A stretch of 64,000 nucleotides of DNA from an uncultured Acidobacteriaceae bacterium (GTDB lineage: Bacteria; Acidobacteriota; Terriglobia; Terriglobales; Acidobacteriaceae), in the NCBI GenBank assembly GCA_963750845.1, contig CAVVSP010000010.1, positions 32,932-96,931 on the forward strand, given 5' to 3'. A program made the translations under genes and the position numbers. Numbering within the stretch: the first letter of the stretch is position 1; each line of letters opens with the position of its first letter. Of the stretch, positions 5,011-24,930 are shown piece after piece. Under the pieces are notes generated by a model, which made no database searches, was not told the DNA's origin, and saw nothing but the letters and a program-made list of their open reading frames with translations.

Positions 5011-8000
5011 CACAGACAGGCAAATCTGAGCAGTCTGGAGCGCAACTATCTCCATTGAAGCAGGCTTTTCTCGCTCTGCAAGCGGCGCAGTCCCGCGTGG
5101 ATGAACTTGAACGGGAACGCTCGGAGCCCGTCGCCATCATAGGCATCGGATGCCGTGTTCCAGGTGGCGGTGAGGGATATGAAGGCTTCTGGAAGCTGCT
5201 GCAAGAAAAAGGAATCGCCGTCAGCGATGGGATGGAGCGCCGGCTGACTTCCGTCGGCCGTAAGGTGCCGTTGCCCGAGGCCGCGCGATGGGCCGGCCTT
5301 CTGGACGAAATAGACGGCTTCGATCCGCAGCACTTCGGTATCTCGCCACGTGAGGCGGTCGGGATCGATCCGCAACAGAGGCTGCTTCTGGAGACATGCT
5401 GGGAAGCGCTTGAAGATGCTGGCGTAGACCCATTCTCGTTGTATCAGTCTCCTACCGGAGTTTACCTCGGCATCGCGACGCACGATTATGCGCATTTACA
5501 AATGCCGGGAATCGGCTTGGGGACGGTCAGTCCTCACTTCGCATCGGGAATTGCATCGAGTGTTGCAGCAGGCCGAATCTCTTATGTGCTCGGATTGAAT
5601 GGGCCATGTGTTTCCCTCGACACAGCCTGCTCTTCTTCGCTGGTGGGTTTGCATCTGGCGTGCGACGCCCTCCGCCGCGATGATTGCTCGATAGCGCTGG
5701 CAGCGGGGGTGAACGTGATCCTCTCGCCGGAGTATCCTATCGCTTTCGCTGAAACCGGCATGCTCTCTCCGCGGGGTCTCTGCCACACCTTCGATGAGGC
5801 CGCGGACGGTTTCGTGCGCGGAGAGGGTTGCGGTGTAGTGGTTCTCAAACGGCTGCGGGATGCCCAGGCATCCGGCGATCGCATTCTTGCAGTAGTGCTG
5901 GGTTCGGCGGTGAATCACGACGGCGCGGCGAGCGGACTGACCGTGCCTAACGGGCAGGCTCAGCAGGAATTGTTGCGGCAGGCTCATGCGAATGCGCGGG
6001 TGGAAGCGCGACAGGTTGGTTACGTCGAAGCGCACGGCACTGGGACTTCATTAGGCGATCCCATCGAGATTGAGGCATTAGGATCGGTCTTCGGGGCAGG
6101 ACGTAAGCGGGAGCACCCGCTCCTGCTGGGATCGGTGAAGGCGAACCTCGGGCATCTGGAGGCCGCAGCAGGCATCGTCGGAGTCATCAAAGTCGTATTG
6201 AGCCTGCAACACGGAGAGATTCCTCCTCAGCCACGATTGAATCGTCTGAACCCGCATGTTCGCTGGGGTGAGCTTCCGCTCGAGGTCGTGACAGATCAGC
6301 AATCGTGGCCCACGATCGAGGGTCGCCGGATTGCAGGTGTGAGTTCCTTCGGGTTCAGTGGAACGAACGCGCACGTTGTCCTGGAAGGCTTCGCAGAAGC
6401 CGCTCTGCCGGCCCCGGAGGTGCGGCGCGCAGAAGTGCTTGTCCTTACCGCCAGGACCGCGACCGCGCTGCGTCAACTTGCAGAGCGGTATGTGCAGTTT
6501 CTGGAGCGCACCGAGGAAGATTGGGGAGATATCTGTCACACGGCTGCGTCAGGCCGCGCGGTCTTTGGCGAGCGCCTCGCGGTTGTTGCAGCCGATAAAG
6601 AGGCGGCCGCGGATTCTCTGAGGGACTGGATCGAGAGGGGTTTGGAATCGGATGCGGTCTTCGGAGGCAGAGTTCGTGCAGGCGATGCAGTGACGCAGCG
6701 GAAGCTGGAACTGCCTGCGGCGGGTATCACCACCGATAACGAATGGTTGTCTCTGGCAAAGGAAGTCGCGGTTGCGTTTGTCCACGGCATCCCAGTCGAT
6801 TGGAATGCATGGAGGAGGGGTCTTAGTCGGCGCAAGGTGGCCCTGCCGACTTATCCCTTTCAACGCGAGCGGTATTGGGTGGAAGCTCCACGACGCAGAA
6901 ACGAGATTGCGGGCGAAGCGACAGGCCGGATTTTGCTTGGAAGTCGTCTACCGGTGGCCGGAGTGGGCGCGCAGTTTCAAACCGAGCTGTCGGTTGAGGG
7001 CGCGAACAGTTGGATCTCCGAGCATGTGATGGGCGGGCGCACAGTCTTTCCCCTGACGGGACACATTGAACTGATGCTCGAAGCTGGGGCGGAAGCTTTG
7101 GGCGCGGGAGCGATGCTGGAGGATATCGCGCTGCACCGGCCGCTGGTGGTCGATGGCGCGAGCACGATACAGGTGGTTGTAGGGAACGAGGCCCAGGGGC
7201 GCACCCATGTGCAGTCATACGTAGCGGATGCGGATGACGGCTGGCTGCCGATCTCTGAGGGATGGCTTTGCTCGGAGGACAAGAGCAGAAAAGACCATGT
7301 CGAGGATCGACTGGACCTCGAAGCGATTCGCACTCGTTTAGGCGAGCCGCGAGATGCTGCGGAATTCTATGCGAGTGCCGCCACCGACGGAGCCAACTTC
7401 GGCCCACGATTCCAGGGGATTGAACGGTTGTGGACGAGTACGCATGAGGCCTTGGCCGAGGTTGGCGTGCGGGCTGCGGAAGAGAACTATGTATTCGCAC
7501 CTTGGCGTCTGGATGCTTGCCTGCAGTTGATCGCAGCGGTGCGTCCAGATGCGGATATGTATCTGCCTTCGAACGTCGGAGAGATTCGTCTCTACGGAAA
7601 GCCTGGCGAGTATTGCTGGAGTCATCTCCGCAGCCGCCAGACCGACGCCGATACCCTCGCCGTGGATGTGACAGTGGCACATCCCAATGGCAGCGTGCTG
7701 GCAGTCGTTCGCGACATGTTATTCCGCAGGTTTACTCCAGGAAAGGTGGATACCACTTCCTGGTTCTACCGTCTGGCGTGGAAGGTGGCGACGGCTGAGA
7801 TCACGGGGCAGCCTGCGATCCAGCGCGCGATATTGATCGGGCGCTCTTGCAGAATGCCGGAAATAGCAGCATCTTTGCGCGAAAAAGGTGTTTCTGTGCA
7901 GATCTTCGCAGACGCCACGCAACTGCAGTCTTCGGAGGCCGATGTGGTGCTCTGTTTCTTATCGAAAGATGCGAAAGATACTCCGCTCGAAATTGGCCAT

Positions 8001-10589: not shown

Positions 10590-10606
10590 GAGCACATAGG
10601 GAGGAA

Positions 10607-13600
10607 ATGGCATTGCGAAGTGACGAAGCATCGAACGCATTTCTGGAGCGCATCCAGAGCCTCTCCCCGAAGCGGCTGGCGCTGTTGGCGGCAGAACTGG
10701 AACGTCGCCTGGCGGCGCGGGAGAACAGTGTCCCCGAGCCGATTGCGGTCATCGGTATGGCCTGCCGGATGCCCGGAGGCGCGACCACTCCGGAGGAATT
10801 TTGGCGGGTTCTGGAGAGCGGCAAGGATACGGCTGCGAAGGTTCCGATCGAACGATGGGACGCCGATGCATTCTACGACCCGCAGTTGGATACGCCAGGC
10901 AAATCGATCACGACGAACGCGAGCATGCTTCGCGGCATCGATCTGTTTGACGCTGCCTTCTTCGGAATTTCACCTCGCGAGGCTACGGGGATCGATCCAC
11001 AGCAGCGAATGCTGCTCGAGGTTACGTGGGAGGCACTTGAAAACGCGGGCGAACGAGGAGAAGCCATTGAAGAGAGTGCGACCGGGATTTATGTGGGTGT
11101 CAGCTCCAGTGACTTTCAGCATCTGGTGCTGCAGGCCGATGAACGTACCCTGAACGCCTATGCCGGCTCCGGGATCGCGAACTCGATGCTATCCGGCAGG
11201 CTTTCGCACTACCTGGGTGTGACGGGTCCAAACCTTACCGTCGACACGGCATGTTCAGCTTCGGCGGTAGCCATTCATCTCGCCTGCCAAAGTCTGCGCA
11301 CGAACGAGTGCAACCGGGCACTGGCTGGCGGCGTAAATCTATTCCTGCTCGCGGAGGGCCTGATCCTTCTCTCACAAGCGCACATGCTCGCTCCCGATGG
11401 GCGATGCAAAGCCTTCTCTCGCCAGGCGGACGGTTTCGGCCGAGCGGAAGGGTGCGGAATGCTGGTGCTGAAACGGCTTTCGGATGCTCGTGCGGATGGC
11501 GACCGTATTCTCGGGCTGATTCGCGGCACGGCTATCAATCATGACGGAAAGAGCAGTGGATTGACGGCTCCGAACGGGCCGGCGCAGGAAGCGGTGATTC
11601 AGACCGCGCTGTCACAAGCGAGATTGAAACCCGGACAAGTTGATTATGTGGAAGCACACGGAACAGGCACGGTCCTTGGCGACGCTATCGAACTGGGCGC
11701 GTTGGGGCATGTCTTCGGCAAGGAACACGATGCGGCGAACCCTCTCTTGCTGGGCTCGGTGAAGACAAATGTCGGCCATCTGGAAGCTGCCGCAGGAGTG
11801 ACCGGCGTGATGAAAGTCTTGCTGGCTTTCCAGCATGAGTCGCTCCCCCCCCATTTGCATCTTTCCGCGGACAATCAGAACGAAGCCTTACTGGGATTGC
11901 CATTCGAGATTCCGATAACTTCTAAACGCTGGTCGCGCTCGCAGCGTCCACGCGTGGCAGGTGTCAACTCTTTCGGATTCAGCGGCACGAACTGCCATCT
12001 GGTTCTTGAAGAGCCGCCACTGGTGGAACAGGCAGAAAGCGGACCGGCGTTTGCCGTGGAGCTGATCACCGTTTCGGCCAAGACGCCAACAGCACTGACC
12101 GCGCTTTGTGGACGATATGCACGTTTTCTGAGAGATAACCCGGCGGTTTCTCTGGGCGACTTCGGATATACGGCGAACGCCTGCCGCACAACCTTTCAGC
12201 ATCGCGTAGCTGTGATTGCACGCTCTGTCGAAGATGCAGCAGCCCAGTTTGAACAGATCAGTTCCGGGAAAGTGGAGCAGTCGTCGAGCTATCGCTTCGC
12301 GGCGGGCTATAAAGCTCCTCCCCTGGCGTTCTTATTTACCGGGCAGGGTTCGCAGTATTCGGGGATGGGTCGAACTTTCTATGAGCGAAATGCAGCCTTC
12401 CGGTCCGCAATGGACAGGTGCGATCGGGCGCTCACCGGTAGAAAGCATCGACTCTCGGCTGTCGTCTTCGGCGATCCTGCTGTTCCGCGCGAGTCAATCG
12501 ACGATACGACCTGGACGCAGCCAGCGCTCTTCGCCTTTGAATACTCCCTGGCAATGATGTGGCAGTCGTGGGGCGTGCGTCCCTCGATGGTCCTGGGTCA
12601 CAGCCTGGGAGAATATGTGGCTGCATGCATCGCAGGCATCCTGACCCTTGAAGAAGCTTTGACTCTCGCTGCCGAGCGCGGACGCCTGATGGGTGAGCTA
12701 CCTCGGAGTGGAAGCATGCTCGCAGTGCGTGCAGGTGAAGACGCGATCATGGCAGTCGTAGGAGCACTGCCTGCAACGGTCTCAATTGCAGCGATGAATG
12801 GGCCCGAAGCCATTGTTCTTTCCGGCAAAACGGACGATGTAACAAAACTGCACGATCTTCTTATGGCGAAAGGCATCCGCTCGCAGCCACTGACTGTATC
12901 GCATGCATTCCACTCTCCGCTGATGGAGCCGATGCTGGATGAATTTGAGGGGCAGGCAGCGAAGCTGACGTATCGGCCTCCCGAGGTCGATTTTGCGTCG
13001 AATGTGACGGGCCAGATGCTTACTCCTGGTGAACCGATCGACGCTGGTTATTGGCGAAAGCACGTTCGCGGGACAGTGAAATTCGCTCAGGGAATGAAGG
13101 CGTTGCTGGAGCAGAAGCCCGGTGTCGTGATCGAGATAGGGCCCAATCCGATCCTGCTTGGCATGGCGAAGGCGGCGCATCCAGAGCTGACGCTGCCGTG
13201 TGTCCCAACGCTGCGTCGTGGTAAGGACGAGTGGCAGTGCGCCTTCGAGGCTTTGCAGCAGATATACCTGGCTGGAGCACCGATTGAATGGAGCGGTGTT
13301 TACCGTGATCGGTTGAAGCAAAAGCTCGTTCTGCCGACATATCCATTTCAGCGCGAGCGTTATTGGGCGGCGGTGACACCGAAGGCTGCAAGAACGGCTG
13401 TCGCTTCTGAGTCTGCAGAAAGCACGGTTGAACGGATTGAGCCGCGCCTTTATCGAGTGGAGTGGACCACGGCTGATCCGAGCCGCGTGAAGACAGAGAA
13501 GACACGGTCAGTCGTCCTGGTGGGTGATGCTCTAGAGAAGATTGAGGTAGGGAAGGCACTTCGCGACGCGGGCCTTGTGGTGCAGGATCTGCCAGTTGCC

Positions 13601-15226
13601 GGATCGTTCTTTTCGGGAAGCACCTCAAGTGATCTAATTCGAGACCGCGAATTCCTCAAGGAATACCTGCGCGGAATCGATACGCCACAGGTAGTTCTAC
13701 TGTTGGCGAGTCGTCCTGAGACGGAGAATCTTCCAGAGGCGGTGCTGCAGAGCGCGACTACCGTTCTGGCGGCAGTGCAGGAAGCCCAGGACAGCAACGC
13801 GGAAGAGCCGGAGCTCTGGCTGATCACGCGCGGAGCTTTTGCCTGCTCGCCGGCCGATCGTATAGCGCTCACCGCCAGCGTGGCGGGCGCCATCGCGAAG
13901 GTATCGCGTGTCGAGAACCCAGGCGTGCATATTTACCAGGCGGATTTGTCCCTCGAACCGACAATCGACGATCTCTCACAACTCGCCAATTTGTTGTGCA
14001 AGGGAACAGTGGAACATACGGTCGCGCTTCGCGAGGGGACGGTTCGTGTTCCGAGGTTGGTGAATGATGACGGACAACAGACAGGACGACTCAAGATCGA
14101 AGCCGGTGCCGCTTACCTGGTAACGGGAGCGTTCAAAGGTTTGGGCCTGCGCACGGCACAATGGCTGGCGGAACGCGGGGCGAGAGAACTCTATCTCGTC
14201 GGACGCAGCGAGCCCTCTGCCGTAACGCGGGAAGAGCTGGATCGTCTCGAACGAGCGGGCGTACGAGTGCATGCAGTTATCGCTGATATCTCAAAAAAGG
14301 AAGAATTCGCTCGTCTTTCAACCCAAATCGTCGAGAATGGTTCCGAGCTGCGCGGTATCCTGCATGCTGCCGGCACACTCGATGACGGTATTCTGATGCA
14401 GCAGACGCCGGAGCGCTTTGCGACGGTCTTTGCTCCCAAGGTTTCAGGTGGATGGTTCCTGCACGAGTTCTCGCTTCAGTATCGGCTGGATTTCTTCGTG
14501 CTATTCAGCTCGGCTGCCGCACTACTTGGCTCGGCGGGACAATCCAACTACGCAGCAGCGAATGCGTTTCTCGATGCACTGGCCGAGTTGCGGCATCAGC
14601 AGGGCTTGCCCGCAACTGCTGTCTCCTGGGGCGCTTGGTCGGAGATTGGAATGGCCACGCGCGGACTTGCCGCTCGCCGCAGCGTCGGCAACGGCATTGG
14701 CAGCATCTCGCCGGAAGAGGGCATGGCGTTGCAGGAGCGAGCCATCCTGAGCGGACTCCCCACGGTTGGGGCGTTGGCCTTCGATTGGAAAAAGCTCTTC
14801 TCGCTGCGAACCGTGCACCATGACTGGCCGCTTCTGCAGAAACTGGCGGCGAATGCCGGTGCGTCGCCCAGTGTTGAGCGTGCTGTCTCTCTGGCCTCGG
14901 TCGTGGAGCAAGCACCCGCCGATGGCCGACTGCATGCGATCAAGGAGTATTTGAGCGCGCGGATCGCGTCAGTTCTGATGCTGCCATCGAGCTACGTTCT
15001 GCACGAAGATCAGCCGTTTGCCGAACTTGGACTTGACTCACTGATGGCGCTTGAGTTGAAAAATGAACTGCAATCATCGGCAGGGGCAGCTCTTCCGCCA
15101 ACATTTCTATTTGAATACCCAAATCTAGGTCTTGCGGCGACTTTTCTGGATGCATTGATGGCGGGAGCCCGCAGGACCGGATCGGCGGAAGTCCACGCTA
15201 CGGGCTATGAGGAGATTGTGCTGTGA
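10607..15226 (+). CDS. Type I PKS module KS-AT(malonyl)-KR-ACP
   Basis: GGAGG RBS. KS DTACSAS, HGTGT, VGHLE; AT FTGQGSQ, GHSLG, HAFH (malonyl-type); KR TGAFKGLG (slightly atypical Rossmann loop), TLDD, YAAAN; ACP LGLDSL. Ends GYEEIVL. Confidence 0.95.
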   Translation: MALRSDEASNAFLERIQSLSPKRLALLAAELERRLAARENSVPEPIAVIGMACRMPGGATTPEEFWRVLESGKDTAAKVPIERWDADAFYDPQLDTPGKSITTNASMLRGIDLFDAAFFGISPREATGIDPQQRMLLEVTWEALENAGERGEAIEESATGIYVGVSSSDFQHLVLQADERTLNAYAGSGIANSMLSGRLSHYLGVTGPNLTVDTACSASAVAIHLACQSLRTNECNRALAGGVNLFLLAEGLILLSQAHMLAPDGRCKAFSRQADGFGRAEGCGMLVLKRLSDARADGDRILGLIRGTAINHDGKSSGLTAPNGPAQEAVIQTALSQARLKPGQVDYVEAHGTGTVLGDAIELGALGHVFGKEHDAANPLLLGSVKTNVGHLEAAAGVTGVMKVLLAFQHESLPPHLHLSADNQNEALLGLPFEIPITSKRWSRSQRPRVAGVNSFGFSGTNCHLVLEEPPLVEQAESGPAFAVELITVSAKTPTALTALCGRYARFLRDNPAVSLGDFGYTANACRTTFQHRVAVIARSVEDAAAQFEQISSGKVEQSSSYRFAAGYKAPPLAFLFTGQGSQYSGMGRTFYERNAAFRSAMDRCDRALTGRKHRLSAVVFGDPAVPRESIDDTTWTQPALFAFEYSLAMMWQSWGVRPSMVLGHSLGEYVAACIAGILTLEEALTLAAERGRLMGELPRSGSMLAVRAGEDAIMAVVGALPATVSIAAMNGPEAIVLSGKTDDVTKLHDLLMAKGIRSQPLTVSHAFHSPLMEPMLDEFEGQAAKLTYRPPEVDFASNVTGQMLTPGEPIDAGYWRKHVRGTVKFAQGMKALLEQKPGVVIEIGPNPILLGMAKAAHPELTLPCVPTLRRGKDEWQCAFEALQQIYLAGAPIEWSGVYRDRLKQKLVLPTYPFQRERYWAAVTPKAARTAVASESAESTVERIEPRLYRVEWTTADPSRVKTEKTRSVVLVGDALEKIEVGKALRDAGLVVQDLPVAGSFFSGSTSSDLIRDREFLKEYLRGIDTPQVVLLLASRPETENLPEAVLQSATTVLAAVQEAQDSNAEEPELWLITRGAFACSPADRIALTASVAGAIAKVSRVENPGVHIYQADLSLEPTIDDLSQLANLLCKGTVEHTVALREGTVRVPRLVNDDGQQTGRLKIEAGAAYLVTGAFKGLGLRTAQWLAERGARELYLVGRSEPSAVTREELDRLERAGVRVHAVIADISKKEEFARLSTQIVENGSELRGILHAAGTLDDGILMQQTPERFATVFAPKVSGGWFLHEFSLQYRLDFFVLFSSAAALLGSAGQSNYAAANAFLDALAELRHQQGLPATAVSWGAWSEIGMATRGLAARRSVGNGIGSISPEEGMALQERAILSGLPTVGALAFDWKKLFSLRTVHHDWPLLQKLAANAGASPSVERAVSLASVVEQAPADGRLHAIKEYLSARIASVLMLPSSYVLHEDQPFAELGLDSLMALELKNELQSSAGAALPPTFLFEYPNLGLAATFLDALMAGARRTGSAEVHATGYEEIVL

Positions 15227-18200
15227 AGCCGTTGATTCAATTTCTATCTGATCTTCGCGCCAAGGACGTCTTACTCAGCGTCGACGGCGATAAGTTGACC
15301 TGCAATGCGCCAATGCATGCAATTACTCCGGAAATCCGACAGGAATTGAGCGATCGCAAAGAAGAGATACTTAGCTTTTTACGAAGTACACAAGGTTGGA
15401 AGGCCGCGGAGACAGGGCCAAGCTCCTCGCGTGATTTGCCGCTCTCGCGCTCCCAACAACGGATCTGGTTTCTGGACCAGCTCGATCCTGGAAATCCGGC
15501 TTATAACATTGTGATCCCTCTCTGGCTCACCGGCAGTCTGGACCGTGATGCCATGGAGCGTGCTCTTCGCGCCGTGATCGGGCGTCACGAAGCTCTTCGG
15601 ACTGGTTTTTCGCAGCGCGGCGGCCGGCCTTTTGCATGGATCACCGGCCAGAAGTCGTGGCAGATGGAGGTCACCGACCTGCGGCATCTGACGGAACCGG
15701 AAGCCGAAACAGAGGCGGCACAGCTTGCCTGGCATGCGGGTCGCTGGTCTTTCGACCTCGAAAAGCCTCCGCTCTTCCGCGCTACCCTCTATCAAGTCAC
15801 CTCTGAGCGATATCTGCTTTGTCTGGTGGTTCAGCACATCGTTGCCGATGGCTGGTCTCTCGGCATCCTTTCTCGCGAGATGTCCGAACTTTATTGCGCA
15901 TTTGCGACTGGCGCATCTTCGCCTTTGCCCGATCCGAGCTTTCAGTATCGTGACTACGTGCGCTGGGAGCAGGAAGAAGGGCAGAGGCTGGCGGAGCAGC
16001 AGCTACCGTACTGGCTGAAGAAGTTACATGGAGACCTGCCGAGTCTGGAGATTCCGCCTGACCGGACTCGTCCGATCCTGCAGAGTCTCGACGGTGGGCG
16101 ACATATTGTCGATATCGACGGCGATCTTGCGGACCAGCTTCGCGTACTCAGCCGGCAGATGGGCGCAACACTTTTTACCGTGTTGCTAGCCGCATTCAAG
16201 GTCCTGATGTACCGCTATACCGGCACCAGAGACGTCATTGTCGGAAGCAACACGGCGAATCGTCCGAGACAAGAGTTCTCCACACAGATCGGCTTTTTCG
16301 TAAATAACATAATTTTGCGCAGCGATCTGAGCGGCAACCCCACCTTCGCCGAGTTGGTTGCGCGCGTGAAGGAGACGACCGGATCTGCTTACGCGAACCA
16401 GAATGTACCCTTCGACTTGTTGGTTGAGAAGCTGCATCCTGAGCGCGCCACGGGCCATCGCAGCACGTTGGCTCAGGTGATGTTTACGCTGGAAAATCTG
16501 CCGCTACCGGATTTGGATCTTCCCGGGCTAAAATCCCGGCCCGACCATTTCGATTTTGGAGTGGCCGGAGCTGATCTTGCGGTATTGCTCTGGCCCGTTG
16601 GCAATGGGTATCGATGTGAGTTCGAGTACAGCAAGGATTTGTTTGACGAAACCACAGTCCGACAGTTGCAGGAACATTATCTGCGATTGCTGAAAGAGGT
16701 GGTGGCAAATCCGGGCGCCCCAATCGAAACGTATCCGCTGCTGAGCGATAACGAACGTGCGCAGCTTGTAACCGAGTGGAACCAAACCGCTCATCCGGGG
16801 CCGGGCTATCCGACTGTAGCAGATTGGTTCCGCGCGCAGGTGGCGCTGCGGCCAAATGCGATTGCGGTGGAGATGGGCGACCGGCAACTTAGCTACGCGA
16901 AACTGGACGCTTTGTCTGACCGTATGGCGAGTGCATTGCAGCAACGCGGCGTCGGACGAGAGATAGTGGTGGGTCTCTATGTGGCGCGCAGTGTAGAGAT
17001 GATGATCTGCCTGCTGGGGATTCTGAAGGCGGGAGGAGCATATCTGCCTTTGGATCCGGCGTTCCCGGCGCAGCGAATTGAATACCTGATCCGAGACTCG
17101 GCCGTGGGTCTGATCGTAACCGAGAAGAGCCTCGAGACTTCGTTGCCCGAGAGCGGCGCAGAGGTGCTCCTGATGGAGCAAGCGCTGGCGTCCGAAACTG
17201 AAAAAGCGGCAGTAGAGCCCGCACGGGCAGAGGATTTGGCCTATCTCATCTATACGTCAGGTTCGACGGGGCAGCCTAAGGGAACTGAGATCACGCACGG
17301 ATCGCTAGTGAACTTGTTGGATTCGATGCTGCGGGAACCGGGACTGAGCCACGGGGACACTCTGGTCGCGGTCACGACATTGTCATTCGACATCGCGGGT
17401 CTGGAGTTGTTTGGTCCACTGGTAAGTGGCGCGAGGCTGGTTCTGGCGTCGCGAGAGCAAACGCTGGATCCGGTCGATCTAGCGGAGTTACTGGAACGCA
17501 GCGGCGCCACGGTGCTTCAGGCTACTCCGTCGACATGGCGAATGCTGATGGAATCCGGTTGGCTCGGGAAGCGCGACCTGCGGATGTGGTGCGGGGGCGA
17601 GGCGCTATCGGCGGAGCTGGCGGATAATCTGCTAACACGTGGGCGGGAGCTTTGGAACCTGTATGGTCCGACAGAAACCACGATCTGGTCGGCGGCGCAC
17701 CGGGTGAGCAGCGGCGAAAACCCTGTTCTTATCGGCCGTCCTATTGCGAATACACGGATGTATATCCTCGACAACCATGGCGATCCAGTGCCGACGGGCG
17801 TGAACGGAGAACTCTACATCGCCGGACATGGCGTGGCCCGAGGTTACCGGAACCGCGCTGAGCTGACGGCAGAACGATTTCTGCCAGAGCGATTTATGGA
17901 CGACGAGCGCATGTATCGGACGGGAGATATGGCGCGGTACCGTCGAGATGGGCAGATTCAACTTCTGGGGCGGACCGATCAGCAGGTCAAACTGCGCGGC
18001 CATCGCATCGAGCTTGGAGAAATTGAGGCGGCACTGGAACGCCATGCAGCCGTACAGCAGGCAGTCATTTCAGTGCGGGGACAGGATGCGGATCGGCGTC
18101 TGGTGGCGTATGTTCGGCTGGACACCGCGAGTGTGCAGAGCGACGATTTGCGGGCATGGCTACAGGAGCGGCTTCCGGAATATATGGTGCCGGGTGTGTA

Positions 18201-18564
18201 TGTTGTGATGGAAGAATTTCCTCTCACGCCGAATGGGAAGGTGGACCGTAATCGTTTGCCCTCGCCGGAAGCGCGTCCACAAGAGCACCATGCACCGGCT
18301 CTGGCGCCACGCAACCGAACCGAACAGCGCGTGGCGGCCATCTGGTCCGAACTGCTCGAGCACGAAGCAGTCGGCGTGCGCGAGAACTTCTTCGATCTGG
18401 GCGGCCATTCTCTGCTCTTGGTTCGCGTGCACGCCCGCCTGCGCGATGCATTCGCTGCCGATATCTCCGTCACCGATCTTTTCCGCTTCACCACCGTCGA
18501 ATCGCTTGCTGCCCATCTGAATCGCCAGGAAGCGCCGGTAATTGTGGAGGGAGTTCCTTCCTGA
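15223..18564 (+). CDS. NRPS module: beta-hairpin (TubC_N-like) docking domain, C, A (probably Gly), PCP
   Basis: N-terminus FLSDLRAKDVLLSVDGDKLTCNAP; C domain LSRSQQRIWFL and QHIVADG; A domain YTSGSTGQPKG, NLYGPTETTIW, YRTGD, NGKVDR. Specificity code read by eye DILQWGLIWK versus canonical Gly DILQLGLIWK. PCP FFDLGGHSL. Confidence 0.95.
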   Translation: MKPLIQFLSDLRAKDVLLSVDGDKLTCNAPMHAITPEIRQELSDRKEEILSFLRSTQGWKAAETGPSSSRDLPLSRSQQRIWFLDQLDPGNPAYNIVIPLWLTGSLDRDAMERALRAVIGRHEALRTGFSQRGGRPFAWITGQKSWQMEVTDLRHLTEPEAETEAAQLAWHAGRWSFDLEKPPLFRATLYQVTSERYLLCLVVQHIVADGWSLGILSREMSELYCAFATGASSPLPDPSFQYRDYVRWEQEEGQRLAEQQLPYWLKKLHGDLPSLEIPPDRTRPILQSLDGGRHIVDIDGDLADQLRVLSRQMGATLFTVLLAAFKVLMYRYTGTRDVIVGSNTANRPRQEFSTQIGFFVNNIILRSDLSGNPTFAELVARVKETTGSAYANQNVPFDLLVEKLHPERATGHRSTLAQVMFTLENLPLPDLDLPGLKSRPDHFDFGVAGADLAVLLWPVGNGYRCEFEYSKDLFDETTVRQLQEHYLRLLKEVVANPGAPIETYPLLSDNERAQLVTEWNQTAHPGPGYPTVADWFRAQVALRPNAIAVEMGDRQLSYAKLDALSDRMASALQQRGVGREIVVGLYVARSVEMMICLLGILKAGGAYLPLDPAFPAQRIEYLIRDSAVGLIVTEKSLETSLPESGAEVLLMEQALASETEKAAVEPARAEDLAYLIYTSGSTGQPKGTEITHGSLVNLLDSMLREPGLSHGDTLVAVTTLSFDIAGLELFGPLVSGARLVLASREQTLDPVDLAELLERSGATVLQATPSTWRMLMESGWLGKRDLRMWCGGEALSAELADNLLTRGRELWNLYGPTETTIWSAAHRVSSGENPVLIGRPIANTRMYILDNHGDPVPTGVNGELYIAGHGVARGYRNRAELTAERFLPERFMDDERMYRTGDMARYRRDGQIQLLGRTDQQVKLRGHRIELGEIEAALERHAAVQQAVISVRGQDADRRLVAYVRLDTASVQSDDLRAWLQERLPEYMVPGVYVVMEEFPLTPNGKVDRNRLPSPEARPQEHHAPALAPRNRTEQRVAAIWSELLEHEAVGVRENFFDLGGHSLLLVRVHARLRDAFAADISVTDLFRFTTVESLAAHLNRQEAPVIVEGVPS

Positions 18565-21500
18565 TGACCATGCCAGGCTCCAACGCATCCAGGAATTCGT
18601 CCTCCTCTGCCAGGCCCGCGCCGTGGAACGACGGCATCGCAATCATCGGAATGAGTGCTCGTTTTCCGGGTGCGCGAAATGTCCGTGAGTTCTGGAAAAA
18701 ACTGGAAGCCGGCGAAAGCTTTGTCTCTGATTTGAGTGAGGACGAACTGCGGGCTGCTGGAGTAGACCCAGCCACGTTGCGCCGCAGCGAATATGTTCGT
18801 CGCGGAAGCATACTGGAAGACGCCGAGTACTTTGACGCAAAGTTTTTTGGCTTCAACCGCCGTGAAGCCGAAATCACCGATCCACAGCACAGGGTATTTC
18901 TGGAGACGGCGTGGCAGGCACTCGAGGACGCGGGCTACACCGGAGATGGTGCCCGCATCGGTGTGTATGCCGGCGTAAGCGTCAATTCCTATTTCTTTCA
19001 GTTGATGTCCCATCCGGATCTCGTCGAGAGTGTGGGCGGATATCAGTTGATGCTCGGCAACGACAAGGACTTTCTGGCGAGCCGTGTCGCCTACAAGCTG
19101 AACCTTCAGGGGCCTGCGGTCGTGGTGCAAACGGCATGCTCGACCTCACTCTCAGCAGTACACCTGGCCTGTCTCAGCATCTTTGCGAACGAGTGCGATA
19201 TGGCACTCGCCGGCGGTGTTTGCATCGGGTTTCCGCAAGGTACCGGCTATCCATATATGCCGGGCATGATCCTGTCTCCTGACGGATACTGCAGGCCGTT
19301 CGACAAAGACGCAAAGGGAACAGTGCCGGGCCGCGGCGCAGCGGTAGTCGTTCTGAAGCGTCTATCGCAAGCGCTGCAAGATGAAGATTCGATCTATGCA
19401 GTGATCCGTGGTTCTGCATGGAACAACGATGGTGCCGGAAAGATAGGCTATACGGCTCCTGGGGTTGCGGGGCAGGCCGCGGTCATTCGCGAAGCGCAGC
19501 GAGTCGCTGGCATAAGTGCGAACCGGATCGGCTATGTGGAAGCACATGGGACGGCGACGGAACTGGGTGACCCCATTGAGGTCACAGCGTTATCCGAGGT
19601 GTTTGCTGGCGGGAAGCCGGCTTCCTGCGTGCTTGGTGCACTGAAGGCCAACCTGGGCCATGCTGATGTCGCTGCCGGCGTGGCGGGATTGGTGAAGACG
19701 ACTTTGGCAATTCAGGCCGGAGTGATTCCTCCCACCCCGAATTTCCAGGAGGCTGCTCCGGCGCTTGGCCTCGACACCGGGCCCTTTGTGGTCAGTGCAT
19801 CCAGAAGAAATTGGCCGGACGGCGAAGAGCGATGGGCCGGAGTGAGTTCGTTCGGCATTGGAGGCACGAACATTCATGTTGTTCTGAGCAATGCTCCCGT
19901 GCGGCCCGCGCGTCCGAATACGGATCGAGCGCGGCTATTTCCGCTCTCGGCACGCACGGAAGGGGCACTGACGAATGTCCGCGAACAGTTGGCGAAGCAT
20001 CTCGAGCAAAGTCCAGAGATAGACCTTGCCGCGGTGGCGGCGACTCTGCAAATCGGGCGACGAGCCTTTGAGTCCCGCTCTGCCACGGTTGCGCAGAGCG
20101 CCGCAGAGTTGGTCACCAAACTCCGTCAGCCAATCGCCACCTCACCGGCGAGCGGCTTCGTCCGTTCAGATGTCGTCTTCCTCTTTCCAGGACAGGGTGC
20201 GCAGTTTGCCGGCATGGCGGCGGGTCTGTACCGCACCGATGCGTCGTTCCGAAGGGTCGTGGATCTCGGCGCGGAGATAGTTCGCGAGGAATTCGGACTC
20301 GATCTTCTGAAGATGATCGTCGACTCGGAATCGACCGGCGAATATGCCGAGATCATCAAGGAGACGCGCGTTACCCAGCCGCTTCTCTTTCTCGTTGAAT
20401 ATGCGCTGGCAACGCGCTGGCGCACGCTTGGCGTAGAACCGGGCGCCTTACTCGGGCACAGTCTCGGCGAACTCACTGCCGCGGCAGTCGCCGGCCTCTT
20501 TTCATTTGAAGATGGCTTGCGCCTGGCTGCCGAGCGTGGGCGACTGATGGGGCAGACCCCACCGGGAGTGATGCTTGCCGTGACCCTCGCGGCAGAGAGT
20601 CTAGCGCCCTATTTAGGACCGGAGTTGTGGCTTGCGGCCGAGAATGGTCCTAAACTCTCGGTCGTGTCCGGACTACCTGCCGCCGTTCAGATGCTCGAAG
20701 AGAAGCTTGCGAAGGATCGCATCTCCTTCGTTCGCCTGGCTTCCAAGAATGCCTTTCACAGCCCATTGATGGCGGATGCGGCGAAAGCCTTTCGCGAGAA
20801 AGTGGCAGCGGTCCCTCGGAAAGAACCTGCAATTCCGTGGCTCTCAAATGTCAGCGGCACCTGGGTCAATCCAACGGAAGCGCAGAATCCTCAGTACTGG
20901 GCGAATCAGATTCTGTCGCGTGTGCGATTTGCGAAGTGCCTTGCTTCTCTCAACGACCGTGCACGCTTTTTGCTCGAAGTCGGGCCAGGAGAGGTGTTGA
21001 TCGGAATGGCCCGCCACCAGACTGTCAAGAGTATAGGCGCGCCTTCGCTCGGGGCGGAGAATCGCAAGAAGAGCGACGACGTAATCTTTCTCGAAGCGGC
21101 TGCGCGATTGTGGCAGGCGGGAATCAATCTGGTCTGGCCAGAACTGCATCCAGGCGAGAAAGCGCAACGCGTGCCGCTGCCCACCTATCCTTTCGAACGC
21201 GAAAAATATTGGATTGGACCCGCGGGAAAATCTATAGAGACGAAACCAATAGAGAACGCGCAGCCACAACGTCAGTTCAATGCGATCACGACGGCAACGT
21301 TGAAGAAACGGCCGGAGATTTCCTCCTGGTTCTACATGCCGCAATGGCAGAGTATGCCGCCGTCGCCTGTTGATCCACTTCACACAACCGCAAAGGCGGT
21401 CGAGTCATGGCTCATCCTGCTGGATTCATCGGGGCTGGGGCAGTTGCTCACGGATCGTCTGGAACAGACAGGAGCCACGGTTGCATCGGTATCGCTCGCC

Positions 21501-23132
21501 CACGAATTTGCGCAAGACAAGAGGGCCTTCTCCCTCAATCCGGAGAAGCAAAGTGACTACGAGCGTTTATGGGCAGAGCTCGGTGCGTCTGGGATTCATC
21601 CTGCGGGCGTGATCTGCCTCTGGACGATAGGCGACATCGCTGCTTCTGCGTTCGATAGCGTCGCCCGGTTGCTACAGAGCGCTCGGGCGACCCGCCAGCG
21701 ACTACTGCAGATTGAAGTTGTCATGGATCGTTTGGAGCAGGTTTTTGACGAAGTCACACAGAATGTGGAGAGCTCCGAAGTATGTGGTCTGATGCGTGTC
21801 GTCCCGCTCGAGTTTCCGGGAACACAATGCCGCACGATCGACGTTGACCTGGCTGCTGGCAATACCAACAAAATCGTCGAGCAGATTATTTCTGAGGTGC
21901 GCTCATCCGGCAGTGCAAGGACTATCGCCATTCGCGGAAATACGCGCTGGCGGAAAGAGTGGTCATCGGTTCCACTGCAGAAAGCGGCGACAGGTGCGTT
22001 CAAGCGGGGTGGAGTCTACCTCATCACCGGAGGGCTCGGTGGCATCGGTTATGTCATTGCACGGCATCTGCTGGCCAAGTACGCCGCCCGCGTTGTCATG
22101 ACGGGCAGAACGCCACTTCCTCCACGGGAACATTGGCGCGGCTTGCTGGAGGAGAACGACCCCGATGAAGAGATATCCAGCCGGATTCGGCGGATGCAGG
22201 AACTAAAAGAGCTCGAGCAGTTCGGAGGAGAGATCCAATATGTCACTGCCGATGTGGCGGATCGCGACGCAATGTCCAGCGTCCTGGCCCAGATGCTTCA
22301 GCGCTATGACAGAATCGACGGAGTAGTACACGCCGCAGGCCTGGCTGGAGGCAGGATGATCGCCGGCATTGATCTGGCGGAAGCTACCCAGATACGTCGT
22401 CCTAAAGTGCAAGGCAGCTTGGTTCTTGCGGATCTGCTGAAGGAAACCAATCTCGACTTCCTCTTGTTCTGCTCCTCCGTCAGCTCCGTGTTCCCCGGGC
22501 CAGGACAAGCGGCATATGCCGCCGCAAACGAGTTTCAAAATCATTTTGCATGGCATTGCCGAAAAGCCTACAGGCTGCCGGCAGTTGCCATCGATTTCGA
22601 CGCATGGCGGCAGGTCGGTATCGCTGCCACCATGGTCCTGCCGGAAGGTTTCGAAGATATCAAGCAAGCGCGAATTCGCACGGCGATGAGCCCCGAAGAG
22701 GGCATCGACGTCATCGAACGCGTTCTTTCAGGATGGCCAGGACCGCAGATCCTCACCTCGACCGTCGAATTGGAGAGTTTTAGCAGCAACCTGCCAGAGA
22801 CATTAGCGGCGTCATCGCTGGAGACATCCGTCTCACCCGAATGCAGTCCGGAGGTCGACGCTATTGTCGAGATATGGTCCGATCTCTTGGCTGACAAGAA
22901 CATTGGGCCGACCGACAATTTTTTTGAACTGGGGGGCCATTCGCTCCTGGGTACGATGATCCTCTCCCGGGTCCGCGAGCGTTTTGGAGTCGTGCTCACC
23001 CTGAGAACACTGTTCGAAGCGCCGACACCCCAGAGTTTCGCCGAGCAGATTCTTTTTGCGCGTGATCGGCAGACGCTGGCATTGACGTCTACTGAGTTGG
23101 AAGCCGAAGAACGAGAGGCCTTCGAGATTTAG
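18564..23132 (+). CDS. Hybrid-type PKS module KS-AT-KR-carrier protein, no thioesterase
   Basis: Post-NRPS KS signature NDKDFLASRVAYKLNL...VQTACSTS; AT FPGQGAQ, GHSLG, NAFH; KR GGLGGIG and YAAAN, no LDD; PCP-like carrier FFELGGHSL. Ends EEREAFEI. TGATG overlap with the NRPS gene. Confidence 0.94.
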   Translation: MTMPGSNASRNSSSSARPAPWNDGIAIIGMSARFPGARNVREFWKKLEAGESFVSDLSEDELRAAGVDPATLRRSEYVRRGSILEDAEYFDAKFFGFNRREAEITDPQHRVFLETAWQALEDAGYTGDGARIGVYAGVSVNSYFFQLMSHPDLVESVGGYQLMLGNDKDFLASRVAYKLNLQGPAVVVQTACSTSLSAVHLACLSIFANECDMALAGGVCIGFPQGTGYPYMPGMILSPDGYCRPFDKDAKGTVPGRGAAVVVLKRLSQALQDEDSIYAVIRGSAWNNDGAGKIGYTAPGVAGQAAVIREAQRVAGISANRIGYVEAHGTATELGDPIEVTALSEVFAGGKPASCVLGALKANLGHADVAAGVAGLVKTTLAIQAGVIPPTPNFQEAAPALGLDTGPFVVSASRRNWPDGEERWAGVSSFGIGGTNIHVVLSNAPVRPARPNTDRARLFPLSARTEGALTNVREQLAKHLEQSPEIDLAAVAATLQIGRRAFESRSATVAQSAAELVTKLRQPIATSPASGFVRSDVVFLFPGQGAQFAGMAAGLYRTDASFRRVVDLGAEIVREEFGLDLLKMIVDSESTGEYAEIIKETRVTQPLLFLVEYALATRWRTLGVEPGALLGHSLGELTAAAVAGLFSFEDGLRLAAERGRLMGQTPPGVMLAVTLAAESLAPYLGPELWLAAENGPKLSVVSGLPAAVQMLEEKLAKDRISFVRLASKNAFHSPLMADAAKAFREKVAAVPRKEPAIPWLSNVSGTWVNPTEAQNPQYWANQILSRVRFAKCLASLNDRARFLLEVGPGEVLIGMARHQTVKSIGAPSLGAENRKKSDDVIFLEAAARLWQAGINLVWPELHPGEKAQRVPLPTYPFEREKYWIGPAGKSIETKPIENAQPQRQFNAITTATLKKRPEISSWFYMPQWQSMPPSPVDPLHTTAKAVESWLILLDSSGLGQLLTDRLEQTGATVASVSLAHEFAQDKRAFSLNPEKQSDYERLWAELGASGIHPAGVICLWTIGDIAASAFDSVARLLQSARATRQRLLQIEVVMDRLEQVFDEVTQNVESSEVCGLMRVVPLEFPGTQCRTIDVDLAAGNTNKIVEQIISEVRSSGSARTIAIRGNTRWRKEWSSVPLQKAATGAFKRGGVYLITGGLGGIGYVIARHLLAKYAARVVMTGRTPLPPREHWRGLLEENDPDEEISSRIRRMQELKELEQFGGEIQYVTADVADRDAMSSVLAQMLQRYDRIDGVVHAAGLAGGRMIAGIDLAEATQIRRPKVQGSLVLADLLKETNLDFLLFCSSVSSVFPGPGQAAYAAANEFQNHFAWHCRKAYRLPAVAIDFDAWRQVGIAATMVLPEGFEDIKQARIRTAMSPEEGIDVIERVLSGWPGPQILTSTVELESFSSNLPETLAASSLETSVSPECSPEVDAIVEIWSDLLADKNIGPTDNFFELGGHSLLGTMILSRVRERFGVVLTLRTLFEAPTPQSFAEQILFARDRQTLALTSTELEAEEREAFEI

Positions 23133-23265: not shown

Positions 23266-24930
23266 CTAAAACTTCACGAGGATCGCAGCAGTCATCCGGT
23301 CTTCGCTGTTCCGAAGATCGGGGTCCATCCGGGGACCAGCGAACCCGGAGCCCCTGTATTGCCGCCCGGCGGGGTTATGCCACCAGGTCCTGAGAAGTAG
23401 GGGACGTTTGCAGCACGATGGTTATATTCCATCCGCCAAGTGATGTACTGGCTCGGCATGTAGTCGAAAGTTGTGGATGCATCCCACGCTTTGTATTTGT
23501 CTGCTGGATTTTCCGTAAAATATGGGGTGCCGGAGGTTGCAGTCGCGCCATTGATTGGCGGTAGCAGAACCAGATAGCGGCCCGGATTGTTGATCTTTCC
23601 GCCGCCGAGTGTTAGTCCGAACAAATCTTTATCGAACCACAAACGGTTATAGAGCATGAATCCAAGGAAGCTCTGCTTTGGCCCCTTTTTCGAAGTGCCT
23701 GCGCAACTTACTCCACCGCCGTGCTCGCAGCCAGCATCGCCCGTCAGTGAAAAAGCCGCTTTGTCCAGAAGCCGCGTAGGATTGTCGTAATACTTGTATT
23801 GAATGCTGTCATCGGTGTGATAACGAACGCGACCAGGCATATTGAGAACATCCTCACCCAATCCATATTGGTTGCCGAGAATGGAAAGCTTTCCATTCGG
23901 ACGCCATAGAATCTGGCCACCTATTCCTGGACGGTTGTTAAACCGGCCATAGGACTGCCAGCCGTTTACAAACCAAGGCTCGACCTTCAGCCTATCCGAA
24001 AGGAAAATCTGGGCGCGGACTCCCGTGAAGAACCAGGGCGTGTTTGAGGACACATAGGAAGGTTGATATGCCCAGTTGTCGAAGTTGTAATAACTGAACA
24101 ATCCCACGTATGACATGAAGATACCTGCATCGACGTTGATTCCATGAAGCGCATTAAAGTGGTAACCTCCGTATGCTTCTGAAAGGTAGCGGTACGCATT
24201 TACGAGGTCCCAGTTCCCGCGGGAATAGCTGGCGTCGTTGCGCGGCGTGGTTGTGGAGTACATGCCAAACTGGGTCAACACACGAGCGCGTACATTGTCA
24301 TAGTGGAAGTCCCCGCCAACACCCAGCTGGGTTAGCTGGACTTCATTCGCACGGAAAATCTCGCTTGATCCTCCGATAGTGTCGTCTTTCGGGTGCCTGA
24401 AGTCATATGTGTAGTCAACGTCGGCACGGATCTCGGGAGTGAAGAACTTAGAGTCAAAAGCAGCCTCCTTGGTGCGCGGATTGCCGTTCAACCAGGTGAA
24501 GTCCGCAAAAGCAAACGGCGCTGACGCTGACTTCTCGGCAGAGACCTTTCCGGAAATGCGGGATTTCATAACTGCTTCAGAGACAGGCATGTCTGAGGTA
24601 TCAACGGTGATCGCAGGCGTGCTCGGCTTCGCAGAAGATGAGATTCCTGCAGGGACCTTCGCGGAGGCAGCTGAAGAATTGTCCGGCTCCTCTGAGAGCT
24701 TGTTCTCAAGAGCGGTAAGCCGCGCTTTCATCTCATTGATCTCGACGAAGCATATCTGCGCGGCTTTCCGTTGCCGCTACCGGCTGCATCGAGCCGTTTT
24801 CGGTAGTGTTGGCGGCAGTCGCAGGGGTCGGCGGCGTGATCTGCGCGAGAAGAGACACAGATGAGACGATAATCAACGTTATATTGACAAGAACTCGAAG
24901 GGGCGAGAACTTGCGACACCTGTATCTCAT
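23266..24930 (-). CDS. Outer-membrane beta-barrel protein (putative porin); two apparent single-base indels
   Basis: GAGGAG RBS precedes the ATG at 24930, followed by a signal peptide (..VSLLAQ). Removing one base near 24745 joins ADMLR to EINEMKARL. The body is aromatic/Gly-rich and beta-strand-like. Adding one C at 23320-23323 gives the terminus WTPDLRNSEDRMTAAILVKF*, with the terminal Phe typical of OMPs. Confidence 0.8.

What the first reader, a model, noticed from the sequence alone, without database searches (positions are those of the whole stretch)
22840..23132. Line ends without a release domain but with a second SLiM docking tail: hidden partner or iterative loop
Seen: the last PKS has no TE or reductase, and its carrier is PCP-like (FFELGGHSL). 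It ends EEREAFEI, similar to the GYEEIVL tail of the 10607 PKS that precedes the NRPS beta-hairpin domain. The next gene is an unrelated convergent porin. Known: acidic/hydrophobic C-terminal short linear motifs bind TubC_N-type beta-hairpin docking domains on C/Cy domains or tailoring enzymes. Inference: either the acceptor is encoded upstream (non-colinear), or the single visible beta-hairpin domain accepts both tails. The second case would let NRPS and last PKS cycle and add repeated Gly-derived units.
Basis: partly seen in the sequence, partly recalled or inferred. Interest (0 to 1): 0.72.

Follow-up and report, generated by a model that had tools for sequence, protein, structure and literature searches.

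The report
Docking tail pointing to upstream release module
The last polyketide synthase in the window is not the end of the assembly line: its short acidic tail most likely plugs into a peptide-synthetase-plus-release module encoded on the other strand 37 kb upstream, an ordinary out-of-order gene arrangement rather than an iterative loop.

Summary
The gene at window 18564-23132 is KS-AT-KR plus a PCP-type carrier, has no TE or reductase, ends EEREAFEI, and is followed by a convergent porin.

The "missing" partner exists. The genome holds exactly two TubC_N beta-hairpin docking domains and two condensation domains. The second pair sits on a divergent gene 13.7 kb before the window (G000:C10:14988-19217, minus strand). 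That gene reads betaHD-C-A(Gly)-PCP-TE and lies next to a type II thioesterase.

Relatives support the pairing:
- A close relative (88-95% identity) keeps the same arrangement.
- Acidobacterium sp. S8 has the orthologous terminal gene 1.7 kb downstream of the last PKS, convergent.
- In six more distant family clusters, PKS modules with the same PCP-type carrier and ...EREE[F/I]E[I/F] tail are followed by a betaHD-C gene, directly or one gene on. One of these is a colinear betaHD-C-A-PCP-TE.

The tail is as conserved as the folded carrier (71% against 12% for the linker).

Minor crosstalk cannot be excluded.

This is a known kind of junction in an uncharacterised Acidobacteriaceae cluster. The scan has reported the same kind before on other DNA (e1-5276310).

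The parts
10607..15226 (+). PKS g3: KS-AT-KR-ACP (ACP-type carrier), the donor at the first PKS-to-NRPS junction
   Evidence: Pfam. The carrier groups with the cluster's ACPs.
15203..15223 (+). SLiM tail of g3, GYEEIVL. This is class 1, x-x-[E/D]-E-[I/L]-x-[L/I].
   Evidence: Translation. Orthologous and related tails are GYEEIVL, QQEEIRL, EYEELSI and QKDEICI.
15223..18564 (+). NRPS g4: betaHD(TubC_N)-C-A-PCP. Its start overlaps the g3 stop. A-domain code DILQWGLIWK (Gly-like).
   Evidence: Pfam, (TubC_N residues 6-54, E 1.7e-17). A-domain code read.
15223..15390 (+). Beta-hairpin docking domain of g4. The hairpin reads VLLSVDGDKLTCNAP, with few basic residues.
18564..23132 (+). PKS g5: KS-AT-KR-PCP-type carrier plus SLiM, with no TE or reductase. 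It is the last plus-strand gene of the cluster but not the last module.
   Evidence: Pfam; translation.
22857..23048 (+). PCP-type carrier domain of g5 (DNFFELGGHSL)
   Evidence: PP-binding at residues 1432-1495. 43% identical to the terminal NRPS PCP, E 7e-18. Non-orthologous database hits are NRPS proteins.
23106..23129 (+). SLiM tail of g5, EEREAFEI. This is class 2, E-R-E-E-[F/I]-E-[I/F]. Its proposed partner is the betaHD of the terminal NRPS, which lies outside the window at G000:C10:14988-19217 (minus strand; L003:14988-19217), 13.7-17.9 kb before window base 1.
   Evidence: for the tail and its conservation. for the partner.
23292..24731 (-). Convergent BBP2/OmpL-like porin, which marks the cluster border. 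It is conserved next to g5 in the close relative G201.
   Evidence: Pfam. 93% identical in L038.

Best explanation
The gene at 18564-23132 is the penultimate module of one hybrid PKS-NRPS assembly line, not its last. Its PCP-type carrier bears a conserved C-terminal short linear motif, EEREAFEI. This motif most likely docks onto the N-terminal beta-hairpin docking domain of a separately encoded terminal subunit, betaHD-C-A(Gly)-PCP-TE.

That subunit lies at G000:C10:14988-19217 on the minus strand. It is divergent from the PKS operon and sits 13.7 kb before the window, about 37 kb from the g5 stop codon.

Its C domain would condense the beta-hydroxyacyl chain on the g5 carrier with glycine, and its fused TE would release the product. 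A type II TE (C10:20378-21169) lies beside it.

The line therefore has two PKS-to-NRPS junctions, each with its own SLiM and betaHD:
- g3 (ACP-type carrier, tail GYEEIVL) passes to g4 (hairpin ...DKLTC...).
- g5 (PCP-type carrier, tail EEREAFEI) passes to the terminal NRPS (Arg-rich hairpin IRLSVDGDRLRCSAPKGR).

Shown: the domain content, the 2:2 count of tails and docking domains, the conservation of the tail, and the co-occurrence and adjacency in relatives. Inferred: physical binding, the pairing specificity and the order of chemistry.
For: 1. Domain counts in the genome. It holds only two TubC_N domains and only two condensation domains, all in this cluster. One pair is on g4. The other is on the upstream ORF, which Pfam reads as TubC_N (E 1e-16), C, A, PCP and TE.
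2. Release domains. The only TE domains above Pfam's cut-off are the one fused to that ORF and the adjacent type II TE. All modular KS domains lie on contig C10, so this is the only modular PKS/NRPS (assembly-line) cluster found in the assembly.
3. Position of the docking domain. With the likely TTG start (C10:19217), which is preceded by GGGTGGAG and matches the start of the S8 orthologue, the docking domain sits at residue 1. It aligns from residue 1 to the solved betaHDs of EpoB 5T7Z (E 4e-9), AerJ 8AQQ and TubC 2JUG.
4. Orthologous clusters.
- G201 (88-95% identical) keeps the upstream divergent arrangement. Its terminal NRPS is 92% identical and the spacing is the same 28.9 kb.
- G126, which is Acidobacterium sp. 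S8 (P0021), has the same PKS gene order. Its terminal NRPS (66% identical) lies 1.7 kb downstream of g5 and is convergent.
- Both genomes again hold exactly two TubC_N domains.
5. More distant g5-like modules, with KS-AT-KR, a PCP-type carrier and an EREE[F/I]E[I/F] tail, have a TubC_N-C gene directly after them or one gene on:
- G061: colinear betaHD-C-A-PCP-TE.
- G176:C92 and G048: betaHD-C-A-PCP.
- G114: free-standing betaHD-C.
- G058: A-PCP-TE, then betaHD-C.
- G202: TE-like ORF, then an NRPS ORF whose tblastn match covers residues 1-1116 of the terminal NRPS (betaHD-C-A-PCP); its TubC_N was not confirmed with Pfam.
6. Tail conservation is 71% against 12% in the linker.
7. The two junction classes differ consistently.
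- Position -2 of the tail is acidic in class 2 in 7 of 8 modules and variable in class 1. Position -6 is Arg in class 2.
- Acceptor hairpins for class 2 carry more basic residues.
- C domains and betaHDs of g4 type form a clade apart from all acceptors of class 2 tails (SH-aLRT 99 for C, 82 for betaHD).
8. From the literature. SLiM-betaHD pairs at carrier/C junctions are established. The last residues of the SLiM pair with strand beta2 through salt bridges (PMC9113145). ACP-SLiM to betaHD-C-A-PCP junctions have been reconstituted (PMC13324335).
Against: - No binding was measured or modelled with confidence.
- SLiM-betaHD pairs are known to be promiscuous. Examples are the rhabdopeptide NRPS and the watasemycin/enacyloxin crosstalk (PMC9113145), and non-cognate HDAC-inhibitor pairs (PMC13324335). 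Sequence class differences therefore do not prove orthogonality.
- Chemically, both donors carry beta-hydroxyacyl chains and both acceptor modules are predicted to load Gly, so nothing in the chemistry forbids crosstalk.
- The assembly is only 80.8% complete, so a further partner in unassembled DNA cannot be strictly excluded. The 99% complete S8 genome, however, shows the same 2:2 count.
- The G000 tail has Ala where 6 of 7 relatives have Glu at position -4.
Confidence: 0.87

Rival explanations
1. Iterative loop. The g5 tail docks back onto the betaHD of g4, so that g4 and g5 cycle and add repeated 4-amino-3-hydroxybutyryl units (+101.05 Da each) before release. This could be the main route or a side route.
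For: - Precedent exists in the rhabdopeptide NRPS, where SLiMs and betaHDs interact promiscuously and the modules iterate (PMC9113145).
- Both tails share the hydrophobic -1/-3 and acidic pattern.
- g3 and g5 both deliver beta-hydroxyacyl chains, and both acceptor A domains are Gly-type, so the g4 C domain could in principle accept the g5 product.
Against: - A dedicated acceptor with a TE exists, and tails and docking domains count 2:2 in three genomes.
- The two tail classes and the two hairpin classes are kept distinct across genera.
- The donors also differ in carrier type, ACP against PCP. The betaHD and C domain can read carrier type directly (PMC13324335).
- In colinear relatives the class 2 tail is followed by its own betaHD gene.
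Confidence: 0.06
2. g5 is the true last module. The chain is released by the free type II TE or spontaneously. The tail is a relic or recruits a tailoring enzyme. The upstream betaHD-C-A-PCP-TE gene would belong to a separate small pathway, together with the GT2 gene.
For: - The terminal NRPS is on the other strand, 37 kb from the g5 stop, with a GT2 gene directly downstream of it.
- SLiMs can also recruit tailoring enzymes (PMC9113145).
Against: - The terminal NRPS starts with a docking domain and a C domain, so it needs a SLiM-bearing acyl donor. The only unpaired SLiM donor in the genome is g5.
- The gene stays with the cluster in G201 and in S8 although its position changes.
- The GT2 gene does not travel with it in S8.
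- The tail is under strong conservation.
Confidence: 0.04
3. The partner of the g5 tail is a further betaHD protein, such as a free C, TE, reductase or halogenase, encoded in the roughly 19% of the genome that is not assembled.
For: Completeness is 80.8%. BetaHDs occur on many kinds of trans-acting enzymes (PMC9113145).
Against: The 99% complete S8 genome and G201 carry the orthologous cluster and hold only the same two TubC_N domains.
Confidence: 0.03

Closest known systems
PKS carrier-SLiM to betaHD-C-A-PCP junctions of hybrid assembly lines (EpoA-EpoB, TubB-TubC, DepC-DepD, PcdC-PcdK)
   Same: - A short acidic/hydrophobic tail follows the last carrier of a PKS subunit.
- A TubC_N-type alpha-beta-beta-alpha-alpha domain sits at residue 1 of a separately encoded NRPS subunit, ahead of its C domain.
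- The terminal betaHD here matches EpoB, AerJ and TubC docking domains directly (background in PMC9113145 and PMC13324335).
   Different: - Here the donor carrier is PCP-type although it belongs to a KS-AT-KR module.
- The line contains a second junction of the same kind with an ACP-type donor.
- The acceptor gene is on the opposite strand at the far end of the cluster.
- No experiment exists for this system.
Enacyloxin chain release (Bamb_5917 PCP-SLiM with Bamb_5915 betaHD-C)
   Same: A PCP-type carrier with a SLiM hands a polyketide chain to a betaHD-C domain at the release end of a PKS (PMC9113145, PMC13324335).
   Different: - In enacyloxin the PCP and the C domain are both free-standing, and the C domain itself releases the chain onto a small-molecule acceptor.
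- Here the PCP is fused to the PKS module. The acceptor is a full C-A-PCP-TE module that adds glycine first.
Rhabdopeptide NRPS (Kj12A/B/C), the iterative SLiM-betaHD system
   Same: The same docking class is used, and several SLiMs and betaHDs occur in one system.
   Different: - Rhabdopeptide has three betaHDs for two SLiMs, with near-identical docking elements that cross-react.
- Here the count is 2:2, the classes are distinct and conserved, and a dedicated TE-bearing terminal module is present.
Non-colinear modular PKS/NRPS clusters, for example the convergent ave and rap PKS gene sets (from my own knowledge, not checked here)
   Same: Gene order and strand do not follow the order of biosynthesis. 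Docking elements, not gene order, set the subunit order.
   Different: Those examples use PKS-PKS helical docking domains. Here the out-of-order junction is a SLiM-betaHD junction.

Membership tests
SLiM / beta-hairpin docking domain pair (TubC_N, PF18563) | The acceptor subunit carries a TubC_N domain above Pfam's curated cut-off. | tested here: met
   Terminal NRPS: 61-66 bits against a cut-off of 26. g4: 64-68 bits.
SLiM / beta-hairpin docking domain pair (TubC_N, PF18563) | The docking domain sits at the extreme N-terminus and is joined by a linker of roughly 20 residues to a C or Cy domain. | tested here: met
   With the TTG start at C10:19217 the domain begins at residue 1. This matches the start of the S8 orthologue and the solved EpoB, AerJ and TubC domains. 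The C-domain motif PLSFAQERFW follows the docking domain by about 20 residues.
SLiM / beta-hairpin docking domain pair (TubC_N, PF18563) | The donor ends in a short tail of under 15 residues after a carrier domain. The tail is conserved while the preceding linker is not. | tested here: met
   The tail is EEREAFEI. The last 7 columns are 71% identical against 12% for the linker in 8 related modules.
SLiM / beta-hairpin docking domain pair (TubC_N, PF18563) | Complementary charged residues lie on the SLiM strand and on strand beta2 of the hairpin (salt bridges), together with a hydrophobic face. | tested here: inconclusive
   The tail has E/R/E at -2/-6/-7 and hydrophobic residues at -1/-3. The hairpin reads DRLRCSAPKGR. 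The residues are present, but which residue contacts which was not established.
SLiM / beta-hairpin docking domain pair (TubC_N, PF18563) | Physical binding of the tail to the docking domain, and dependence of chain transfer on that binding. | not testable with these tools
   This needs ITC or NMR and an in vitro transfer assay.
Iterative SLiM-betaHD system (rhabdopeptide type) | Donor tails outnumber the acceptors or cross-react with them, with near-identical docking elements and no one-to-one assignment. | tested here: not met
   There are two tails and two docking domains in G000, G126 and G201. The two tail classes and two hairpin classes are distinct and conserved.
Terminal (releasing) NRPS module | C-A-PCP followed by a fused TE with a catalytic triad. 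| tested here: met
   Pfam finds C, A, PCP and Thioesterase. Motifs present are HHIICDA in C, FFELGGHSL in the PCP, and PGDH for the TE histidine. The TE nucleophile motif is GHCVG, so the nucleophile is Cys, not Ser.

The most novel reading that the evidence does not exclude
The two SLiM-betaHD junctions of this line are not fully orthogonal. The g5 tail would sometimes return the chain to g4 (adding extra 4-amino-3-hydroxybutyryl units, +101.05 Da), or the g3 tail would sometimes dock on the terminal module (skipping g4 and g5). The cluster would then make a small ladder of lipopeptides. The ACP-type versus PCP-type donor carriers would act as the main fidelity filter.
Probability: 0.08. Interest if true: 0.5.

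Novelty: new member of a known kind. Interest (0 to 1): 0.18.

Why it matters
The result closes an apparent gap. The assembly line does have a release module, so the product can be predicted: a reduced, C-methylated polyketide chain, then Gly, then a beta-hydroxy C2 extension, then Gly, released by a Cys-type TE.

It also gives a natural example of one line using two distinct SLiM-betaHD pairs, one with an ACP-type donor and one with a PCP-type donor. This could serve as a small test set for docking specificity rules and for engineering.

It does not reveal a new mechanism.

Tried and rejected
- Complex prediction. I ran g5 carrier+tail (alignment A1) against the terminal betaHD (alignment A2). 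The request failed twice because the machine was busy. It then ran and returned no verdict: score 0.07 against a mark of 0.32, and the controls were not folded. It is not used for or against binding.
- The look-up of encoding contigs for three closer metagenomic orthologues (P0005, P0011, P0013). I used the search for related loci and the genome search instead.
- My first automatic read-out of the A-domain specificity code used wrong offsets. I redid it by hand from the motif context.
- A regex for the hairpin motif and for the C1 motif missed several relatives. I recovered those from the Pfam coordinates.
- Terminator and promoter scan after g5: nothing informative.
- Considered and rejected: the upstream NRPS as a starter module. 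It begins with a docking domain plus a C domain and ends in a TE.
- Considered and rejected: g3 pairing with the terminal module and g5 with g4. g3 and g4 overlap at stop and start, and colinear relatives show the order class 1 tail, g4-type NRPS, g5-type PKS with class 2 tail, terminal-type betaHD.
- Two unpublished genomes (G025, G173) appeared in the list.
Full report
**Observation**

The window carries the 3' two-thirds of a hybrid PKS-NRPS cluster, with these genes:

| Gene | Window coordinates | Domains |
|---|---|---|
| (end of earlier gene) | 3-1487 | end of a KS-DH-ER-KR-ACP gene |
| g1 | 1471-5010 | KS-cMT-ACP |
| g2 | 5007-10589 | KS-DH-ER-KR-ACP |
| g3 | 10607-15226 | KS-AT-KR-ACP |
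| g4 | 15223-18564 | TubC_N-C-A-PCP |
| g5 | 18564-23132 | KS-AT-KR-carrier |

- g5 has no TE or reductase domain and ends ...ELEAEEREAFEI. Its carrier reads DNFFELGGHSL.
- g3 ends GYEEIVL.
- The next gene (23292-24731, minus strand) is a BBP2 porin.
- The carrier is PCP-type by homology. It is 43% identical (E 7e-18) to the PCP of the terminal NRPS and 38% to that of g4. It matches the cluster's ACPs only weakly, at E 0.003 or weaker where it matched at all.
- A database search with residues 1400-1522 returns, apart from orthologous PKSs, NRPS proteins.

**The missing partner**

The window is G000:C10:32932-96931. A whole-genome search with the TubC_N model finds exactly two matches. One is on g4. 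The other is at C10:19056-19208 on the minus strand.

- The ORF holding the second match (C10:14988-19415) is TubC_N, C, A, PCP and Thioesterase.
- The genome has only two condensation domains, on these same two genes.
- The only TE domains above Pfam's cut-off are the fused one and a type II TE at C10:20378-21169, between the terminal NRPS and the PKS operon.
- All modular KS domains are on C10.
- The likely start of the terminal NRPS is the TTG at C10:19217. It is preceded by GGGTGGAG and corresponds to the ATG of the S8 orthologue.
- With that start the protein is 1409 aa, and the docking domain begins at residue 1.
- From residue 1 it aligns to the solved docking domains of EpoB (5T7Z, E 4e-9), AerJ (8AQQ) and TubC (2JUG).
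- C-termini and N-termini of all the subunits show that the PKS-to-PKS junctions use helical docking elements. Only g3 and g5 end in SLiM-like tails.
- So there are two donors for two acceptors.

**Comparative evidence**

| Genome | Relation to G000 | What follows the g5-type module |
|---|---|---|
| G201 (Acidobacteriaceae MAG) | 88-95% identical | Same layout as G000: tail AEEREAFEI, convergent porin after g5. Terminal NRPS (92% identical) upstream and divergent, at the same 28.9 kb from g4. |
| G126 (Acidobacterium sp. S8, by P0021) | another genus, 58-70% identical | Same PKS order, g5 tail EEREEFEI. Terminal NRPS orthologue (66% identical) 1.7 kb downstream of g5, convergent. |
| G061 | more distant, same family | Colinear TubC_N-C-A-PCP-TE |
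| G176:C92, G048 | more distant, same family | TubC_N-C-A-PCP |
| G114 | more distant, same family | Free-standing TubC_N-C |
| G058 | more distant, same family | A-PCP-TE, then TubC_N-C |
| G202 | more distant (an Acidobacteriaceae MAG) | TE-like ORF, then an NRPS ORF matching residues 1-1116 of the terminal NRPS (tblastn; TubC_N not confirmed with Pfam) |
| G176:C77 | more distant, same family | No partner within the 12 kb read |

- G201 and G126 each hold exactly two TubC_N domains.
- The terminal gene thus stays with the cluster while its position and strand change.
- The more distant modules all share KS-AT-KR, a PCP-type carrier and a tail EREE[F/I]E[I/F].
- The tail's last seven columns are 71% pairwise identical, the 22 linker columns before them 12%, and the carrier core 62%.

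**Two junction classes**

- Counting from the C-terminus, both tail classes have hydrophobic residues at -1 and -3 and acidic residues around -4/-5.
- The g5 class adds Glu at -2 (7 of 8 modules; Ser in G058) and an invariant Arg at -6.
- The g3 class is variable at -2 and has Y/Q/K at -6.
- Acceptors of g5-class tails have more basic hairpins (G000: IRLSVDGDRLRCSAPKGR) than g4-type acceptors (VLLSVDGDKLTCNAPMH).
- In trees of the C domains and of the docking domains, the g4-type acceptors form one clade apart from all acceptors of g5-class tails. SH-aLRT is 99 for C and 82 for the betaHD.
- The donors also differ in carrier type, ACP against PCP.
- The review PMC9113145 states that the last residues of the SLiM form a strand against beta2 of the hairpin, with two salt bridges and a hydrophobic face.
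- PMC13324335 shows that the betaHD can also grasp the carrier itself.
- Both layers could therefore give fidelity here. This is inference and was not shown.

**Predicted chemistry**

- Reading the A-domain pocket from the motif context gives DILQWGLIWK for g4.
- The same reading gives DILQLGLIWK, the Gly code, for the terminal module.
- The line would thus end: ...beta-hydroxyacyl (g3), Gly (g4), C2 extension plus ketoreduction (g5), Gly (terminal), TE.
- The second glycine comes from a second module, not from cycling.

**Rivals**

- *Loop.* It has a precedent in rhabdopeptides, and both donors and acceptors are chemically similar. But it is unnecessary once a dedicated TE-bearing acceptor is found. 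It also conflicts with the 2:2 count and with the conserved class differences. I give it 6%, mostly as possible minor crosstalk.
- *Relic tail, with release by the type II TE.* This leaves the terminal NRPS without any donor and ignores the tail's conservation (4%).
- *A partner in unassembled DNA.* The 99% complete S8 genome makes this unlikely (3%).

**Comparison with what is known, and novelty**

SLiM-betaHD docking at carrier/C junctions is well described, with more than 1400 pairs reported (PMC9113145). ACP-SLiM to betaHD-C-A-PCP junctions have been reconstituted (PMC13324335). Out-of-order gene arrangements are common in modular systems.

This is a new, uncharacterised member of that kind in soil Acidobacteriaceae. 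The scan has already reported the same situation in another genome: e1-5276310, where a PKS tail points to a divergent NRPS 40 kb away.

Interest is low.

**Limits**

- No binding evidence could be obtained. The complex prediction gave no verdict (see Tried and rejected).
- The assembly is 80.8% complete.

Noticed in passing
L003:15345-15640 (G000:C10, minus strand; outside the window, terminal NRPS TE domain): The fused TE has the nucleophile motif GGHCVGG, so the nucleophile is Cys where Ser is usual. The same is seen in S8 (GGYCVGG) and G058 (GGWCLWA), while G061 has Ser. GXCXG TEs are uncommon. [quoted passage not shown] The release chemistry here may therefore be a cyclisation rather than hydrolysis.
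   Followed up: partly
L004:1895-1901 (G000:C10:21895-21901; outside the window, loading-module KS): The loading KS is split over two frames. Relative to the 95% identical G201 sequence, G000 has one extra base (TTGACGGAGCGTCGAT against TTGACCGA-CGTCGAC). This breaks the conserved GGFLxxVDxFDAxFF stretch. It is either an assembly error or a recent inactivation of the whole line.
   Followed up: partly
window:15223-18564: The g4 C domain has QHIVADG in place of HHxxxDG. The first His is lost and the catalytic second His is kept. Its A-domain pocket has Trp at position 299 (DILQWGLIWK), and the Trp (in RMW[C/S]GGE) recurs in the g4 counterparts of S8 and G058.
   Followed up: partly
L032:3071-7275 (G058) and L033:7191-8864 (G114): In two related clusters the acceptor after the g5-type module is a free-standing TubC_N-C protein of about 560 aa. 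In G058 a separate A-PCP-TE gene lies between the PKS and that protein. These are split terminal modules, closer to the enacyloxin Bamb_5915 design.
   Followed up: no
L003:13692-14975 (G000:C10, minus strand): A family 2 glycosyltransferase gene lies 12 bp downstream of the terminal NRPS on the same strand. It was not found in the two 20-kb stretches of S8 (G126:C3:183000-223000) compared. The product may be glycosylated in this lineage.
   Followed up: no
L038:6887-11561 (G201): The g5 orthologue of the close relative is split into two overlapping frames (6887-10606 and 10539-11561). This is a frameshift in that MAG assembly.
   Followed up: no
window:18520-18660: The NRPS-to-PKS junction between g4 and g5 shows no recognisable docking elements. 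g4 ends ...QEAPVIVEGVPS, and g5 starts with a Ser-rich 20-residue stretch directly before the KS. All PKS-to-PKS junctions have helical docking sequences. How g4 finds g5 is unexplained, apart from the 1-bp stop/start overlap.
   Followed up: no
L003:16230-16260 (terminal NRPS A10 motif): The A10 core reads PNRKVDR instead of PNGKVDR. The catalytic Lys is kept.
   Followed up: no
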